Positions 3 to 4,047 of a DNA stretch of 64,000 nucleotides are shown in pieces (position 1 is the first letter of the stretch; each line of letters starts with the position of its first letter). Both the position numbers and the translations under genes were made by a program. The DNA comes from Rhodobacter sp. GTDB taxonomy: Bacteria > Pseudomonadota > Alphaproteobacteria > Rhodobacterales > Rhodobacteraceae. The stretch covers positions 60,102 through 124,101 of the forward strand of contig JAIXXB010000032.1 in NCBI GenBank assembly GCA_027490955.1, given 5' to 3'. The notes below the pieces were generated by a model. The model was not told where the DNA came from, searched no databases, and was given only the letters and a program-made list of their open reading frames with translations.

Positions 3-317
3 CTGAACCCCCGCACGGGCGAAGTCTTGCGCGATGTCTTGCTTATCGCCAATCTGCAAGAGGGCGCAGCAAAACGCAGTGGCATCTCCTCTCGCAGCAC
101 GGGTGCCAGCGGCGGATCGGGGCCGTCGGGCGGTTCGGCTTCGGGCGGCGCTGGATCATCGAGCGATGACGACGACGACGACGATGATGATGATGACCGT
201 GACAATGAAGACGAGGATGACGACCGCGACGACGAGGACGATGATGCGGAGGATGACGATGACGACGACGACAGCGGCAAAGGCCGCGGTCGCGGTCGTG
301 GGGGCGATGATGACTGA
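3..317 (+). CDS. C-terminal part of a PepSY-like secreted protein with Gly/Ser linker and poly-Asp tail (5' end outside window)
   Basis: The frame from nt 3 reads LNPRTGEVLRD, matching VNRNTGEILRD in the paralog at 1663-2160. It is followed by a G/S linker and a D-rich tail ending DDDSGKGRGRGRGGDDD. Confidence 0.75.
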   Translation: MNPRTGEVLRDVLLIANLQEGAAKRSGISSRSTGASGGSGPSGGSASGGAGSSSDDDDDDDDDDDRDNEDEDDDRDDEDDDAEDDDDDDDSGKGRGRGRGGDDD

Positions 318-340
318 CCGATCTTTGCTTTGGGTGTGAT

Positions 341-880
341 GTGCGCAAACCGATCTTTATCGCAGTGATCTTGATCCTTCAGATTCTGTGCGCTTTGTTC
401 TTTGTGTCTGACATTCTTTCTGCATTCTTTGGGTTTTCCACCACGCCCTTGCCATGGGAAATTCGCGAAGTGATGGAAATCTTCGCGGCCTTTGGATTGG
501 TTGTTGGCGTGGTTTTGGGCGCTGTTTTGCTGCGTATCGCTACATCAGATCGCCGCCGCGCCGAATTGCAACTGCGCCGCGCCTCTAGCGCGTTTATGCA
601 GCTTTTGGCCGAAAGAATGGCCGAGTGGGGCCTAACCCCCGCCGAAAGGGACGTGGCCTTATTCGCAATCAAAGGCATGTCCACCGCCGAAATCGCTGCC
701 CTGCGCGCCACGTCCGAAGGGACGATCAAGGCGCAGACAAATGCGATTTACCGCAAAGCGGGCGTGACTGGCCGCGCGCAGTTGATCTCGCTTTTCATTG
801 ATGATCTGGTGGACAAAGATGCGGGCCTGCTGCCACAGGAACCTGCCAGCCCTTCGAAAGATGCCGCGGCCTTGGGATAA
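341..880 (+). CDS. Membrane-anchored LuxR-family HTH regulator (2 TM helices + LuxR HTH)
   Basis: Two hydrophobic N-terminal segments, then LTPAERDVALFAIKGMSTAEIAALRATSEGTIKAQTNAIYRK (LuxR HTH). No receiver domain. Confidence 0.85.
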   Translation: MRKPIFIAVILILQILCALFFVSDILSAFFGFSTTPLPWEIREVMEIFAAFGLVVGVVLGAVLLRIATSDRRRAELQLRRASSAFMQLLAERMAEWGLTPAERDVALFAIKGMSTAEIAALRATSEGTIKAQTNAIYRKAGVTGRAQLISLFIDDLVDKDAGLLPQEPASPSKDAAALG

Positions 881-1112
881 GGCGATCGCGCCTGACCACA
901 GATGATTTTTGCGATCTAAACCCCGACATCATCCTGCACCAACTTTCGTTGATAGCTGCGATTTTCCCGCAGGTTTTGCGCCATAAACCTTTGAGGTATT
1001 GCAATCAACCTTTGGCAGATAGATCAATTGCGAAAATATAGGAAGTTACGCAGGCCAAGGGCAAAAGACCTGTGGTGATGCCTTGGCGTTCAATTGCAAT
1101 GGAGTATGTAAA

Positions 1113-1556
1113 ATGAAAACCCCTGTACTGACGCGGACTGTTCTTTTGGGCGGCGCGTGCCTTTTGTCGGCGATGTGGATATCCAGCGCCAGCTTTGCCG
1201 AAGATGCCCAGCCTTTGCCCGACGATGCTGTCGTGGATGCGGTTGACAATGCTGTGGTGGATGCGGTTGTTGAAACCTTGCCCGAAGCAGATGACGAGGG
1301 CGAGGTTACATTGGCCGAACCCGTGTCAGATTTGGTAGATGAAGAAGCCGTTCTTGTCATCGACCTAGACGATGAATGGATTGCCGATGCGCTGGCATCG
1401 GGGCAACAGTTTGAAATTGGCGCAACGGATGGATCCTTTGTTATTGGCACAACGGATATGGGCGCGAATTCTGATGAGAGCTCTGCCCATCTGACGCAAG
1501 AAGAATGCTTGCGCATGTTCCCAGACCGCGCCGAACTCTGCGCGACCTTTGAATAA
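1113..1556 (+). CDS. Hypothetical secreted acidic protein
   Basis: GGAG RBS at 1101-1104 and ATG at 1113. Signal-peptide-like N-terminus (..ASFA|ED), very D/E-rich body, C-terminal Cys pair (ECLRMFPDRAELC). Confidence 0.7.
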   Translation: MKTPVLTRTVLLGGACLLSAMWISSASFAEDAQPLPDDAVVDAVDNAVVDAVVETLPEADDEGEVTLAEPVSDLVDEEAVLVIDLDDEWIADALASGQQFEIGATDGSFVIGTTDMGANSDESSAHLTQEECLRMFPDRAELCATFE

Positions 1557-1662
1557 GGTTTAACGTTATGGGCGCTGGCATATTCGCCTAAAGGTGGATT
1601 AAGCTTTCGGCATGTGGAATCGCGGCCAGTGCCCATATCTATTCTGCGATTGGGGGGGTGAA

Positions 1663-2160
1663 GTGAAATCAGTTATTGGGGGCCTCGTGCTGATCTTTGG
1701 CATGGCCAATGCGTCTTGGGCGCTGAGCACGGAAGAAAAATTTGTGGTCGGCTTACAGGCCCAAGGGTTCACAATTGTTGAACGCGAAAAAACCTTTTTT
1801 GGCCGCCTCAGGATCATTGCTGAAAACGAAAAAGTGCGCCGCGAGATTGTGGTCAATCGCAACACGGGCGAGATTTTGCGGGACTATTCGGTGCTGCTGA
1901 CCGATCTTGCAGATGTGCATAGCGGCAGCACTGCGGGGCAAACCGCGACGGCAGATCACACAAACGATCGCGACAGTGCCTATGCGCTGCCTGCGCCCGC
2001 TGGTGGCGTGGTGGCCGCCTTTGGGCCAACATCGACTGCTGATGTCTATGTGGTGGAAAAACGGCGGGGTGCGAGCGGTGATGTGGACGAAGTTGTGATC
2101 TTCATCTCACCCGTCGATGTGTCCACAGTTGATGCCGTGCCTGTTGAAACTGATGACTAG
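1663..2160 (+). CDS. Secreted PepSY-like protein (paralog of the gene ending at 317)
   Basis: GTG start at 1663, signal peptide (..ASWA|LS), PepSY-like core LQAQGFTIVEREKTFFGRLRIIAENEKVRREIVVNRNTGEILRD, low-complexity acidic tail. Confidence 0.7.
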   Translation: MKSVIGGLVLIFGMANASWALSTEEKFVVGLQAQGFTIVEREKTFFGRLRIIAENEKVRREIVVNRNTGEILRDYSVLLTDLADVHSGSTAGQTATADHTNDRDSAYALPAPAGGVVAAFGPTSTADVYVVEKRRGASGDVDEVVIFISPVDVSTVDAVPVETDD

Positions 2161-2704
2161 GGCAAGCGTCTTTTTGGCCCTGCTGCTGGCCCAAGCGATG
2201 TGCGCTGCTTTCTTTTCATCTGATTTGCTGATGTCTGCATTGGGCATTTCTACCGCGCCCCTGTCATGGACAATGCGCGAATTGATGGAACTGGGTGCGT
2301 TGATTGGCCTGTTTTTAGGCATGGTCTTTGGCGGCATTTTGGTCTGGCGCGCCTTTCGCGATCTGTCGCGGGCCGAGCAGCAATTGCAGCGCGCATCCAG
2401 CGCCTTTGTTGATTTGATGAACACAAGATTTGGCGAATGGAACCTGACAAGCGCCGAGAGGGATGTGGCCCTGCTTGCCATCAAGGGTTTGAACGTGCAA
2501 GAGATCGCGCAATTGCGCAACACCAGCGAAGGCACTGTCAAATCGCAAACTGCACAAATCTATCGCAAAGCCGAGGTAACAGGCCGCCCACAACTGCTCA
2601 GCCTGTTTATTGAAGATCTGCTGGGGGTCGAGCGCGCCGCGCCAGCGGCCAGTTCAGCCAATATGCCGTTTAGCCCGTCTTTTCTGCGCGTAGGGCGGAA
2701 ATAA
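2153..2704 (+). CDS. Membrane-anchored LuxR-family HTH regulator, second copy
   Basis: ATG at 2153 overlaps the upstream stop. Same architecture as 341-880, with shared PLxWxxRExME and LTxAERDVAL..IKG..EIA.LR.TSEGT.K.Q...IYRKA motifs. Confidence 0.85.
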   Translation: MTRASVFLALLLAQAMCAAFFSSDLLMSALGISTAPLSWTMRELMELGALIGLFLGMVFGGILVWRAFRDLSRAEQQLQRASSAFVDLMNTRFGEWNLTSAERDVALLAIKGLNVQEIAQLRNTSEGTVKSQTAQIYRKAEVTGRPQLLSLFIEDLLGVERAAPAASSANMPFSPSFLRVGRK

Positions 2705-2752: not shown

Positions 2753-3139
2753 TCAGCGCGAAATCGCGTAACGCTGCAATATCTCCAGCGGGACAACCGC
2801 TAAAGTGGCGATATGCGTGGCGGCCAAATTGACCTGCGGGGCCGCGCCTTCCTCATGCGCTTGTAGGAACCGCGCCGCGCAAAGACACCAGCGATCCCCT
2901 GCCTTTAGCCCTGCAAAGCCATATTCGGGGCGCGGGGTGGACAGATCGTTGCCAAGGTATTTTGACAGGGCCAAAAACTCATCTGTCATGATCGCGCAGA
3001 CCGAATGCAAACCGCCATCCATATGGCCAGTGTTGCAGCAGCCATCGCGGAAATAGCCTGTCATAGGTGCGGTCGAGCAGGTTTCCAGCGCCCCGCCCAG
3101 CACGTTGGTCGAGGGAAACATCGCGTCAGAAATAGCCAT
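2753..3139 (-). CDS. DUF2237 family protein
   Basis: NVLGGALETCSTAPMTGYFRDGCC and GDRWCLCAARF motifs are typical of DUF2237. ATG overlaps the upstream TAA (TAATG). Confidence 0.85.
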   Translation of the reverse strand: MAISDAMFPSTNVLGGALETCSTAPMTGYFRDGCCNTGHMDGGLHSVCAIMTDEFLALSKYLGNDLSTPRPEYGFAGLKAGDRWCLCAARFLQAHEEGAAPQVNLAATHIATLAVVPLEILQRYAISR

Positions 3140-4047
3140 TAAAACACCTGTGAAAAGCGGGGGGGAAGGCGGTAAAGTTCTTTTGTGCGTCCGCCGCCCC
3201 AAAAGGCGACTTTGCCATCGTGTAAAAGTTGCTGGCCATCGATCATCTTGGCGCGAAATTCGGGCAGCGCGATGTCTTCGCGCACAGGAACGCCGCTGGC
3301 CAGCGCCTTGAAATTTTCCAAATCTTTTCCCCAAGCATGGCCCACATCTTTCGGGTCTTTCTCGCCTGTCATGATATCGCGCATTTCCCGCCGCCCCGCC
3401 AGCCTTGCGCAGGTGATATCATAGTCAAAAAAGCGCAGATGGATCAGGTAAAGATGTGGGTCAAGAACGCGGGGCAGATGGTTGTTGGCATGTCCACCGA
3501 TGGTAAAGGCGACATCGCGGCGCATCACGCAGGGCTTGGCGTAATTGGCATTGGCGCGAAAGACACGGCGGCGCGATAGGATGGTGGCATCGTCTGTGAT
3601 CGGGTCTGTTTCCACCTCGGGATTGTGAATCAGTTCTATCGCAAAGGGGCAGAGCGATTTGGGCACATCGCGCCCCTCATAGCGCCGCATGTAAGTGATC
3701 AGATCAGGGGCAATGTCGGGGTCGACCACCACCACCTCATCGACATCGCCTACAAAAAGCCAATTGTAATAGCGCAGCATGCCGCTGGCGAATTGGGAAA
3801 TAAAGGCCCAGCGGCGGCGGTCTAACCGAAACATCGTCGGGTCGCGTGGCAGGGTGATGATGTTGCACCCCGCGCCGATGCGGGCATGTTCGGCGTCACC
3901 CCCATGTGAAAGGATATACAGATGCTGGCGGCCAAATTGCGCGCCGTAATGGCGCACCCAGCGTTCGAGAAAAAAGTAATCCTGATAGGCCATCGTGATG
4001 GCCCCGCAGGGTACTTTGGTAGGGTCCATGATGCCGCGCTCTGCCAT
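3139..4047 (-). CDS. Glycosyltransferase family 2-like protein (Glyco_tranf_2_4 type)
   Basis: FLERWVRHYG, YILSHGGD, VGDVDE (DxD) and NYAKPC motifs. Paralog of 6581-7471. Confidence 0.75.
   Translation of the reverse strand: MAERGIMDPTKVPCGAITMAYQDYFFLERWVRHYGAQFGRQHLYILSHGGDAEHARIGAGCNIITLPRDPTMFRLDRRRWAFISQFASGMLRYYNWLFVGDVDEVVVVDPDIAPDLITYMRRYEGRDVPKSLCPFAIELIHNPEVETDPITDDATILSRRRVFRANANYAKPCVMRRDVAFTIGGHANNHLPRVLDPHLYLIHLRFFDYDITCARLAGRREMRDIMTGEKDPKDVGHAWGKDLENFKALASGVPVREDIALPEFRAKMIDGQQLLHDGKVAFWGGGRTKELYRLPPRFSQVF

What the first reader, a model, noticed from the sequence alone, without database searches (positions are those of the whole stretch)
3..2704. Duplicated module: secreted PepSY-like acidic protein plus membrane-tethered LuxR regulator
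Seen in the sequence: two successive pairs of a PepSY-like protein (shared NxxTGE.LRD core, acidic tail) followed by a 2-TM LuxR-HTH protein that has no receiver or autoinducer-binding domain. A third secreted acidic protein sits between the pairs, and the second pair overlaps by 8 nt. Inference: a kinase-independent transmembrane signalling system in which the exported acidic partner senses a cue (possibly a cation) and acts on the short periplasmic loop of the LuxR protein. The paralogous pair could give two specificities or heterodimers.
Basis: partly seen in the sequence, partly recalled or inferred. Interest (0 to 1): 0.65.

Follow-up and report, generated by a model that had tools for sequence, protein, structure and literature searches.

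The report
PepSY partners with membrane-anchored LuxR regulators
The window holds two copies of a conserved but unstudied gene module in which exported PepSY proteins with long acidic tails sit in front of a tiny membrane-embedded LuxR-type gene regulator; it is probably a kinase-free relative of the PepSY-plus-sensor systems recently described in Vibrio and Pseudomonas.

Summary
The order is trpB, exported acidic protein, PepSY0, PepSYA, LuxRA, exported acidic protein, PepSYB, LuxRB. The genome also has a third LuxR paralog, which lies behind a small PepSY and a cytochrome b561.

- **Regulators:** both are about 180 aa, with a 2-TM hairpin, a loop of about 8 aa, one long helix and a GerE HTH. 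They have no receiver or autoinducer domain.
- **PepSY proteins:** PepSYA and PepSYB miss Pfam, but a profile comparison places them in PepSY_2 (98.6%).
- **Linkage:** a PepSY gene lies directly upstream in 79 of 79 close loci and in 30 of 45 loci from random genome samples. Counting cytochrome b561 as well gives 37 of 45.
- **Pairing:** the A and B pairs co-diverged.
- **Operator:** a palindrome, TAAAC-N4-GTTTA, precedes the operon in 56 of 68 loci. It changes to TAAGC-N4-GCTTA exactly where the recognition helix changes, so autoregulation is likely.
- **Sensor face:** it carries D24, W39 and R42-E-x-x-E46, the Fe(II)-sensing motif of BqsS.

Still inferred: PepSY–regulator contact and a cation cue.

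Closest known are DbfQ-DbfRS and BqsPQ-BqsRS. This is a new variant of a known kind. Other agents in this scan have already noted the same operon elsewhere.

The parts
3..317 (+). PepSYA, 3' two thirds of the gene. The full gene is G000:C33:59909-60418 and begins 193 nt before the window. It encodes an exported PepSY_2-like domain plus a disordered poly-Asp/Glu tail ending GKGRGRGRGGDDD.
   Evidence: ORF. Orthologs lie directly upstream of the LuxR gene in 79 of 79 loci. Family profile against bona fide PF13670 proteins: hhalign 98.65%, E=4.9e-16. No direct Pfam hit.
341..880 (+). LuxRA, a membrane-embedded one-component regulator of 179 aa: TM1, short outer loop, TM2 continuing into a long cytoplasmic helix, then a GerE/LuxR HTH.
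   Evidence: GerE E=1.7e-7. Hydropathy. AF2 model pLDDT 88 with helices 3-30, 39-95, 100-110, 115-121, 126-140 and 145-163. 5458 homologs, named only 'LuxR/CsgD family'.
347..535 (+). LuxRA 2-TM hairpin (residues 3-65). The outer loop is residues 31-38 (GFSTTPLP, nt 431-454). D24 sits in TM1 (nt 410-412).
   Evidence: D24 and E46 are near-invariant or invariant across the family. The module is found only in about 175-aa LuxR proteins among 1.84 billion representatives.
455..478 (+). LuxRA W39-E-I-R42-E43-V-M-E46: a conserved Trp plus an RExxE motif at the periplasmic end of TM2.
   Evidence: RExxE in 94 of 107 and W39 in 105 of 107 regulators that lie next to tailed PepSY genes. Cytochrome b-linked relatives have H42-x-x-x-E46 in 20 of 21.
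632..793 (+). LuxRA GerE-type HTH (residues 98-151). The recognition helix carries K130, N134 and R138.
   Evidence: Pfam. PDB profile hits to VraR and GerE DNA-binding domains. K130 goes with the TAAAC operator in 89 cases and never with TAAGC. R130 goes with TAAGC in 8 cases and never with TAAAC.
1113..1556 (+). Acid1, an exported acidic protein of 147 aa with a terminal C-x10-C. It is the probable positional equivalent of the exported acidic protein that opens the B-type operon in other genomes.
   Evidence: Signal peptide and composition. Only 5 sequence homologs in 5.8 billion proteins. An exported acidic protein precedes PepSYB in 9 of the 13 other two-module genomes, 6 of them ending in a C-x10-C pair. 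hhalign reaches only the signal-peptide region (E=3e-5).
1663..2160 (+). PepSYB, an exported PepSY_2-like protein of 165 aa (GTG start; the ORF opens at 1612) with a disordered, mildly acidic tail.
   Evidence: AF2: helix 23-33 plus four strands 37-78 at pLDDT above 94, tail below 65. Profile homology to PF13670. No direct Pfam hit.
2153..2704 (+). LuxRB, paralog of LuxRA (183 aa) with the same architecture. RExxE is at nt 2276-2290 and GerE HTH at nt 2441-2602. The start overlaps the PepSYB stop by 8 nt.
   Evidence: 54% identity to LuxRA. GerE E=9e-8. Sequence read.

Best explanation
The window carries two paralogous copies of a conserved, autoregulated envelope-signalling operon. A third, older-looking copy lies elsewhere in the genome.

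**Anatomy**
- Each operon ends in a small LuxR/GerE-type regulator that stays in the inner membrane. It is N-in and C-in, with a 2-TM hairpin and only about 8-14 residues facing the periplasm. A long helix connects the hairpin to the HTH.
- Each operon begins with one or two exported PepSY_2-type proteins that carry long disordered tails, mostly poly-Asp/Glu.

**Shown here**
- The architecture.
- The PepSY homology.
- The strict gene linkage.
- Co-divergence of the A and B pairs.
- A conserved palindrome upstream of the operon whose half-site changes together with the regulator's recognition helix.

**Inferred**
1. The regulator binds that palindrome as a dimer and controls its own operon, so the PepSY proteins are at least part of the output.
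2. The PepSY protein encoded next to the regulator also docks on its outer face (loop, W39, RExxE) and sets its activity. This would parallel DbfQ acting on the kinase DbfS, but without kinase or phosphotransfer.
3. The cue is most likely a periplasmic cation. Fe(II) or Fe(III) comes first, and Ca2+ or other metals are possible. It would be bound by the RExxE/D24 site and/or the polyanionic tails.
4. The A and B copies give two specificities.
For: - **Architecture:**
- **PepSY homology:** PepSY0 scores 23.9 bits on PF13670 against a cutoff of 24.3. The A/B family profile against bona fide PF13670 proteins gives 98.65%, E=4.9e-16. The AF2 model shows an alpha+beta4 core.
- **Linkage:** 79 of 79 close loci. 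In random samples, 30 of 45 full-length members have a PepSY directly upstream and 37 of 45 have PepSY and/or cytochrome b561. All 4 PepSY genes in the genome are next to its 3 TM-LuxR genes.
- **Operon structure:** a 23-nt gap and an 8-nt overlap.
- **Co-divergence:** 17 of 17 B-type LuxR proteins have B-type PepSY partners (Fisher 8e-11). Partner-swap rho is 0.64 against a null of 0.03+-0.10, with 0 of 2000 swaps reaching it.
- **Operator:** TAAAC-N4-GTTTA occurs in 56 of 68 loci, against at most 3 in shuffles, with a variable spacer and a fixed position. The only exact site in the 2.96-Mb genome lies 183 nt upstream of PepSY0. The third module's promoter carries TAAGC-N4-GCTTA, as do distant triads.
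- **Helix and half-site covariation:** K130 with TAAAC 89 to 0, and R130 with TAAGC 8 to 0. One cytochrome b triad (L116) has the K-N-R helix and a TAAAC site.
- **Sensor face:** RExxE in 94 of 107, W39 in 105 of 107, D24 and E46 family-wide.
- **Literature:** RExxE is required for Fe(II) sensing by BqsS (PMC4358008). DbfQ binds DbfS, and two PepSY genes precede the Bqs system (PMC12714742). PepSY proteins can bind metals (lanpepsy, PMC9988556; UipA as cited in PMC12714742).
Against: - There is no direct evidence of PepSY-regulator contact. No multimer prediction was possible.
- The periplasm-facing part of the regulator is very small (loop of about 8 aa), unlike the folded sensor domain that DbfQ binds.
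- The motif-to-partner association (RExxE with tailed PepSY, H42 with cytochrome b) rests on only 3-6 independent evolutionary transitions and is not significant after phylogenetic correction.
- RExxE is a short motif, so the resemblance to BqsS may be coincidental. The TM module shows no detectable homology to kinase sensor regions.
- No operator was found for the B module in this genome.
- 8 of 45 family members have neither PepSY nor cytochrome b nearby.
- PDB fold search of the PepSYB model was inconclusive.
Confidence: 0.55

Rival explanations
1. Cargo only. The TM-LuxR senses the cue by itself, through the intramembrane or interface D24/R42/E43/E46 site. The PepSY and acidic proteins are purely its regulated products, for example periplasmic polyanionic metal buffers, with no feedback on the regulator.
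For: The operator lies upstream of the PepSY genes and is the only exact site in the genome, which suggests a regulon of one operon. The regulator's exposed loop is tiny. 8 of 45 members lack any PepSY or cytochrome b neighbour yet keep D24 and E46. The tails look like chelators.
Against: In the only studied PepSY-sensor system, the PepSY protein is both co-transcribed with the sensor and a direct modulator of it (PMC12714742). PepSY type and regulator type stay strictly paired after duplication. The outer-face motif differs by partner type, although that association is weak statistically.
Confidence: 0.25
2. Redox or haem-linked sensing. The family's primary partner is the di-haem cytochrome b561, and the TM hairpin reads that protein's state within the membrane. 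In the window's A and B modules the cytochrome gene has been lost, so the regulators work with a cytochrome encoded elsewhere or have been repurposed.
For: 13 of 45 sampled members are PepSY - cytochrome b561 - LuxR triads and 7 more have cytochrome b561 alone, including members outside the class. One locus has a dihaem cytochrome c / DUF1924 / cytochrome b561 cluster. A conserved His42 is specific to the cytochrome b-linked forms. This genome has one such triad.
Against: The A and B forms replace His42 by Arg and add W39 and E43. The genome's only cytochrome b561 of this type already has its own dedicated regulator and its own operator variant. This does not explain the tailed PepSY duplication.
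Confidence: 0.12
3. Proteolytic release. PepSY, named as a peptidase-inhibitory propeptide domain, controls a periplasmic protease that cleaves the regulator and frees the HTH, as in anti-sigma or RIP pathways.
For: This rests only on the historical PepSY link to M4 peptidase propeptides (Yeats et al. 2004, as cited in PMC12714742) and on the membrane tether.
Against: No protease gene is conserved in the neighbourhood. An 8-aa loop is a poor site-1 substrate. Neither the studied PepSY-sensor case (DbfQ, PMC12714742) nor the metal-binding PepSY protein lanpepsy (PMC9988556) has been linked to a protease.
Confidence: 0.04
4. No functional link. The adjacency is inherited synteny in a conserved trpB-to-DUF2237 region, and the palindrome belongs to another regulator.
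For: The cluster sits at the same chromosomal place in many Rhodobacterales, so close relatives are not independent observations.
Against: The linkage recurs in different genomic contexts, in distant families and in other classes. It also holds in the second and third copies within one genome. The operator half-site tracks the LuxR recognition helix.
Confidence: 0.03

Closest known systems
DbfQ-DbfS-DbfR of Vibrio cholerae (PMC12714742)
   Same: A small Sec-exported PepSY protein is encoded immediately upstream of, and co-transcribed with, the membrane sensor it modulates. Such modules are widespread, and some have two PepSY genes.
   Different: Here there is no histidine kinase and no response regulator. 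The membrane protein is itself the DNA-binding regulator. It has no folded periplasmic sensor domain, only a loop of about 8 aa. The PepSY proteins also carry 40-190-aa polyanionic tails that DbfQ is not described as having.
BqsP/BqsQ (PA2659/PA2658) - BqsRS of Pseudomonas aeruginosa (PMC4358008, PMC12714742)
   Same: Two PepSY genes come first, then the sensor. The sensor is a two-pass membrane protein with an RExxE motif just after TM1, which is required for Fe(II) sensing. LuxRA and LuxRB have R42-E-x-x-E46 in the equivalent place. Only the proximal PepSY is predicted to bind the sensor.
   Different: The output is phosphorelay in Bqs and direct DNA binding here. No sequence homology between the TM modules was detected. 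Metal specificity is untested here.
ToxR/CadC-type transmembrane transcription regulators (PMC10269533)
   Same: One-component regulators that bind DNA while anchored in the inner membrane. Some are controlled by a periplasmic partner.
   Different: Those have an N-terminal winged-helix domain, one TM helix and a periplasmic sensor domain. This family has an N-terminal 2-TM hairpin, no periplasmic domain and a C-terminal GerE HTH. LuxR/GerE types are not mentioned in that survey.
Metal-binding PepSY proteins: lanpepsy (PMC9988556) and UipA (cited in PMC12714742)
   Same: Exported PepSY-domain proteins that bind metal cations through acidic residues.
   Different: Those are not known to partner a LuxR regulator. 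Binding here is only inferred from composition.
NCBIfam NF047608, LIC13292 family transcriptional regulator (Leptospira)
   Same: This is the best NCBIfam hit. The profile has a similar length (166 positions), and the match covers the juxtamembrane helix and the HTH.
   Different: Scores are 65.9 and 58.9 bits against a cutoff of 200, and the N-terminal TM part does not match. It is not a member. No paper mentions the family.

Membership tests
LuxR/FixJ/NarL-type HTH (Pfam GerE, PF00196) | C-terminal four-helix GerE DNA-binding domain above the Pfam threshold | tested here: met
   LuxRA 31.2 bits and LuxRB 32.1 bits against a cutoff of 23.5. 83 of 83 family members hit. PDB profile hits to VraR and GerE.
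LuxR-type quorum-sensing receptors | N-terminal autoinducer-binding domain (PF03472) | tested here: not met
   No such hit in either protein or in any of 83 relatives. The N-terminus is a 2-TM hairpin.
NarL/FixJ response regulators | Receiver domain (PF00072) with a phospho-acceptor Asp, and a cognate kinase | tested here: not met
   No receiver hit. No HK or RR gene among the neighbours.
PepSY_2 (PF13670) | Sequence match to the family profile at or above the gathering score | tested here: inconclusive
   PepSY0 scores 23.9 bits against 24.3 (E=4e-5). PepSYA and PepSYB give no hit. 12 of 93 orthologs hit at E<=0.01. Against bona fide PF13670 proteins the profile-profile comparison gives 98.65%, E=4.9e-16. 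They are homologous but divergent.
PepSY_2 (PF13670) | PepSY fold: one helix packed on a four-stranded antiparallel sheet | tested here: inconclusive
   The AF2 model has helix 23-33 and strands 37-43, 49-54, 58-64 and 71-78 at pLDDT above 94. Foldseek against PDB gave no significant hit. YpeB (5boi) came only at rank 22, E=0.39.
DbfQRS-like PepSY + two-component modules | Small exported PepSY protein encoded within four genes of the sensor | tested here: met
   The PepSY gene lies directly upstream on the same strand, with a 23-nt gap or an 8-nt overlap.
DbfQRS-like PepSY + two-component modules | The partner is a histidine kinase / response regulator pair | tested here: not met
   The partner is a one-component TM-LuxR. 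No HK or RR lies nearby.
DbfQRS-like PepSY + two-component modules | Direct binding of the PepSY protein to the sensor's periplasmic part | not testable with these tools
   No multimer prediction is on offer. There is only indirect support from co-divergence.
BqsS/PmrB-type (R/H)ExxE iron sensors | (R/H)ExxE motif exposed at the periplasmic face and needed for the metal response | tested here: inconclusive
   The motif is present and conserved (94 of 107), at the first turns of TM2 in the model. Exposure and function are untested. No homology to kinase sensors was found.
NF047608, LIC13292 family | Score at or above the 200-bit cutoff | tested here: not met
   65.9 and 58.9 bits.

The most novel reading that the evidence does not exclude
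The module is a self-contained, kinase-free periplasmic metal circuit. The polyanionic PepSY 'antenna' proteins and the D24/RExxE site of a 2-TM LuxR regulator would share or hand over a cation, with Fe(II) or Fe(III) most likely, and the regulator would then set the amount of antenna protein made. Its older form (PepSY + di-haem cytochrome b561 + regulator with His42) would be a split analogue of PepSY-TM ferric reductases, with transcription coupled to the redox state of the bound metal or haem. Duplication into A and B modules would give two metal specificities in one cell.
Probability: 0.2. Interest if true: 0.8.

Novelty: new variant of a known kind. Interest (0 to 1): 0.6.

Why it matters
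PepSY proteins are among the commonest unexplained exported proteins in bacteria. Only in 2025 was one shown to control a membrane sensor (PMC12714742).

This family would extend that principle from two-component kinases to a direct membrane-to-DNA regulator, and it would be the smallest such system so far: about 175 aa with no periplasmic domain.

The family is common. It occurs in 15 of 20 sampled genomes of the window's family and forms 473 clusters at 50% identity. Public records annotate it only as 'LuxR/CsgD family' plus hypothetical proteins.

The report gives concrete handles for experiments:
- a predicted operator,
- three recognition-helix positions that track the operator half-site,
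- five candidate sensor residues.

It also links the module to a cytochrome b561, which could connect metal or redox chemistry at the membrane to transcription in abundant aquatic Rhodobacterales.

Tried and rejected
- **Direct Pfam and NCBIfam scans of PepSYA and PepSYB.** No hits. This was resolved only by profile-profile comparison.
- **Foldseek of the PepSYB model against PDB.** No significant match. Profile search of PDB sequences gave nothing relevant.
- **Homology of the TM module to kinase sensor regions.** A profile search of 1.84 billion representatives found only about 175-aa LuxR proteins. Of five over-long hits checked, one proved to be a fusion artefact (P0166, AtuA domains); P0138 had no Pfam domain and three had only GerE (one also a PUCC hit).
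- **Phylogenetically corrected test of sensor motif against partner type.** Only 3-6 independent contrasts, so no power.
- **Operator for the B module in this genome.** No TAAAC-type palindrome with up to 2 mismatches lies upstream of Acid1 or PepSYB. Only a 16-nt direct repeat containing TAAAC half-sites was found.
- **Acid0 and Acid1 as paralogs.** Rejected. Acid0 against the B-operon acidic family gave no similarity.
- **Rfam scan of the cluster.** Nothing.
- **Promoter and terminator scan.** At background level.
- **IQ-TREE on 108 pairs.** It did not finish, so FastTree was used.
- **Flanking-gene clustering by longest ORFs.** Spoiled by spurious antisense ORFs in this GC-rich DNA. It was replaced by one annotated neighbourhood.
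- **Literature.** No paper in the library joins PepSY with a membrane LuxR regulator.


Full report
**1. What is there**

The window is G000:C33:60102-124101, from a member of the Rhodobacter family. Its closest public relatives are Pseudorhodobacter and Cypionkella. I read 12 kb upstream of the window as locus L004 (window position = L004 position minus 12000). The finding turns out to be the right-hand two thirds of a larger same-strand cluster that follows trpB:

| Gene | Coordinates | Notes |
|---|---|---|
| Acid0 | L004 10219-10755 | exported, D+E 39 against K+R 5 |
| PepSY0 | L004 11209-11712 | 167 aa |
| PepSYA | L004 11808-12317 = window up to 317 | |
| LuxRA | window 341-880 | |
| Acid1 | window 1113-1556 | |
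| PepSYB | window 1663-2160 | |
| LuxRB | window 2153-2704 | |

A DUF2237 gene converges from the minus strand.

- All five non-regulator proteins have ordinary Sec-type signal peptides ending in AxA-like sites. I read these by eye, because no signal-peptide tool was available.
- LuxRA and LuxRB are 54% identical. PepSYA and PepSYB are 30% identical.

**2. The regulators**

- Both have only a GerE HTH in Pfam. The same is true of all 83 aligned relatives, with no receiver and no autoinducer domain.
- The AF2 model of LuxRA (pLDDT 88) shows helix 3-30, a loop at 31-38, and one long helix 39-95. The long helix is TM2 running on into the cytoplasm. The four GerE helices follow.
- Charges are MRKP at the N-terminus and RRR..RR after TM2. 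This fits an N-in, C-in topology with only GFSTTPLP and the first turns of helix 2 facing out.
- D24 in TM1 and E46 in TM2 are near-invariant across the whole family.
- A profile of the TM part alone, searched against 1.84 billion representative proteins, found 473 clusters. Essentially all have the same about 175-aa LuxR architecture, and none is fused to a kinase. The hairpin is therefore a dedicated module of this family.

**3. The PepSY proteins**

- PepSY0 falls just below the Pfam PepSY_2 cutoff (23.9 against 24.3 bits). PepSYA and PepSYB give no hit, and public records leave their orthologs unannotated.
- An alignment of 93 A/B-type orthologs matches an alignment of nine small proteins that pass PF13670, at 98.65% probability and E=4.9e-16.
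- The AF2 model of PepSYB has one helix and four strands at pLDDT above 94, followed by a disordered tail. The PDB fold search was not significant, so the fold test is inconclusive and the profile result carries the assignment.
- Tail composition:
  - PepSY0-type tails have a median length of 83 aa and are 45% Asp+Glu.
  - A-type tails have a median of 72 aa, with 30% Asp+Glu and 37% Gly+Ser.
  - Some tails are His-rich.
  - B-type tails in other genomes are not acidic.

**4. Linkage**

A genome-collection scan found at least 573 loci, and the 80 best were fetched.

- A PepSYA-type gene lies directly upstream on the same strand in 79 of the 79 loci that have upstream DNA. A PepSY0-type gene lies before it in most. 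A second B-type pair occurs in about 15.
- These loci are close relatives, so I also drew random genomes. About 14 of 401 genomes sampled evenly across the class have a full-length member. In a phylum-level draw, 15 of 20 genomes of the window's own family have one, as do a few genomes outside the class.
- Among the 45 full-length regulators in those 50 loci:

| Neighbourhood | Count |
|---|---|
| PepSY gene directly upstream | 30 |
| of which small PepSY (PF13670) - cytochrome b561 (PF01292) - regulator triads (Pfam check) | 13 |
| cytochrome b561 alone | 7 |
| neither | 8 |

- The window's own genome has such a triad on contig C39. It has no other PepSY gene and no other cytochrome b561 of this type.

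**5. Cognate pairs**

- On FastTree trees of 108 regulator-PepSY pairs, all 17 regulators nearer to LuxRB than to LuxRA have PepSY partners nearer to PepSYB (Fisher 8e-11).
- In the 14 genomes with two pairs, swapping partners within genomes destroys the match between the two distance matrices. Observed rho is 0.64 against a null of 0.03+-0.10, with 0 of 2000 swaps reaching it.
- The pair was therefore duplicated and kept as a unit. This is consistent with specific pairing, but it does not prove contact.

**6. Operator**

- Upstream of PepSY0, the inverted repeat TAAAC-N4-GTTTA occurs in 56 of 68 loci, against at most 3 in shuffles. It sits at a fixed distance with a variable spacer, which is the signature of a protein site.
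- The 2.96-Mb genome has exactly one such site, at C33:59127 (L004 11026), 183 nt before the PepSY0 start.
- The C39 triad instead has TAAGC-N4-GCTTA about 100 nt before its PepSY gene, as do seven triads from distant families.
- The half-site tracks the recognition helix:

| Helix residue 130 | TAAAC sites | TAAGC sites |
|---|---|---|
| K130 (mostly K-N-R at 130/134/138) | 89 | 0 |
| R130 | 0 | 8 |

- One triad (L116) has the K-N-R helix and a TAAAC site. The operator therefore follows the regulator, not the gene content.
- I conclude that the regulators very probably bind these palindromes and control their own operons. This makes the PepSY proteins at least part of the output.
- In genomes with both modules, the order is trpB, a TAAAC site, an exported acidic protein that mostly ends in C-x10-C, PepSYB, LuxRB, a second TAAAC site, PepSY0, PepSYA, LuxRA.
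- Acid1 is the likely positional equivalent of that acidic protein. The evidence is the same C-x10-C spacing by eye and hhalign similarity in the signal-peptide region only (E=3e-5). It has only five sequence homologs.
- In this genome the B module lies after the A module, and I found no operator for it.

**7. The sensor face and the cue**

- Regulators next to tailed PepSY genes have W39 (105 of 107) and R42-E43-x-x-E46 (94 of 107). Those next to cytochrome b561 have H42-x-x-x-E46 (20 of 21).
- RExxE just after TM1 of a two-pass membrane sensor is the motif that BqsS needs to sense Fe(II). HExxE serves PmrB for Fe(III) (PMC4358008).
- The Bqs system is preceded by two PepSY genes, and only the proximal one is predicted to bind the sensor (PMC12714742).
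- PepSY proteins that bind lanthanides or uranium and iron are known (PMC9988556; UipA as cited in PMC12714742).
- These facts, together with the Asp/Glu/His tails, make a cation the best guess for the cue, with iron first.
- The caveats are serious:
  - The motif is short.
  - No homology to kinase sensors was found.
  - The association of motif with partner type rests on few evolutionary events and fails a corrected test for lack of power.

**8. Known or new**

- The closest studied system is DbfQ-DbfS-DbfR, where an exported PepSY protein binds the kinase's sensor domain (PMC12714742).
- A survey of transmembrane transcription regulators does not mention LuxR/GerE types, and no paper in the library joins PepSY with a membrane LuxR protein.
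- The best NCBIfam model, LIC13292, is far below its cutoff.
- I rate this a new variant of a known kind: the PepSY-partner principle applied to a one-component, kinase-free, membrane-embedded LuxR regulator.
- Other agents of this scan reported the same operon in other genomes and reached similar readings. Those are unchecked AI notes and not independent evidence. I looked them up after my own analysis of linkage and closest known system; the sequence look-up also came after the operator analysis.
- New here are the duplicated A/B modules and their co-divergence, the cytochrome b561 triads as a family-wide alternative form, the RExxE against HxxxE split, and the covariation of helix and half-site.

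**9. Verdict**

Linkage and kinase independence are shown. PepSY as input, the cation cue and heterodimers are inferred.
- My confidence in the combined model is 0.55. The main rival, at 0.25, is that the PepSY proteins are only cargo.

Noticed in passing
G000:C39:24791-26216 (minus strand; locus L085 4034-5459), outside the window: Third paralogous module of the same genome: small PepSY (86 aa, PF13670 34 bits), cytochrome b561 (PF01292), then TM-LuxR (162 aa). The genes overlap or abut. A TAAGC-N4-GCTTA palindrome at C39:26317 lies about 100 nt upstream of the PepSY start.
   Followed up: yes
G000:C33:59127-59140 (= L004 11026-11039, 974 nt before the window start): The only exact TAAAC-N4-GTTTA palindrome in the 2.96-Mb assembly, 183 nt upstream of PepSY0. 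A weaker site with 2 mismatches lies 47 nt downstream of it (L004 11073).
   Followed up: yes
window 907-922 and 974-989: A 16-nt direct repeat (TTTTGCGATCTAAACC / TTTTGCGCCATAAACC, 81% identical, 67 nt apart) in the LuxRA-Acid1 intergenic region. Each copy holds one TAAAC half-site. ATTGCAAT and TCAATTGC also each occur twice at 998-1100. These could be the unrecognised control region of the B module.
   Followed up: partly
window 170-317 versus G000:C33:59666-59813: The DNA encoding the acidic tails of PepSYA and PepSY0 is 75% identical, and both tails end in the same GKGRGRGRGGDDD. The PepSY cores are much more diverged. This suggests tail exchange or parallel repeat expansion.
   Followed up: no
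window 2753-3334 (minus strand): A DUF2237 gene (PF09996, E=4e-51) converges on LuxRB with 48 nt between the two stop codons. Only residues 77-190 of the 193-aa ORF match the family, so the real start is probably further in. The Tabrizicola ortholog is 122 aa. The order trpB, module, DUF2237 is conserved there.
   Followed up: partly
L097 1800-4477 (genome G261): A family member lies behind a cytochrome b561-dihaem cytochrome c fusion, DUF1924 and a dihaem cytochrome c (DHC) instead of a PepSY gene. This is another redox-protein partner for the same regulator family.
   Followed up: partly
L109 2938-5053 (genome G540): Two PepSY-regulator modules lie tail to tail. The two regulator genes converge and end 2 nt apart.
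   Followed up: no
L099 4939-5415 and L100 4691-5086 (genomes G150, G297): In a distant family the partner PepSY tails are His/Asp-rich (for example ...DHDSGHDSGDDDGHDGHDDD), and the regulator has W39 with I-E-x-x-E. This composition is typical of transition-metal binding.
   Followed up: no
G000:C1:125903 and G000:C41:37808: Two further exact TAAGC-N4-GCTTA palindromes in the genome (3 found, 1.7 expected by chance). They may be extra targets of the C39 regulator or may be chance matches.
   Followed up: no
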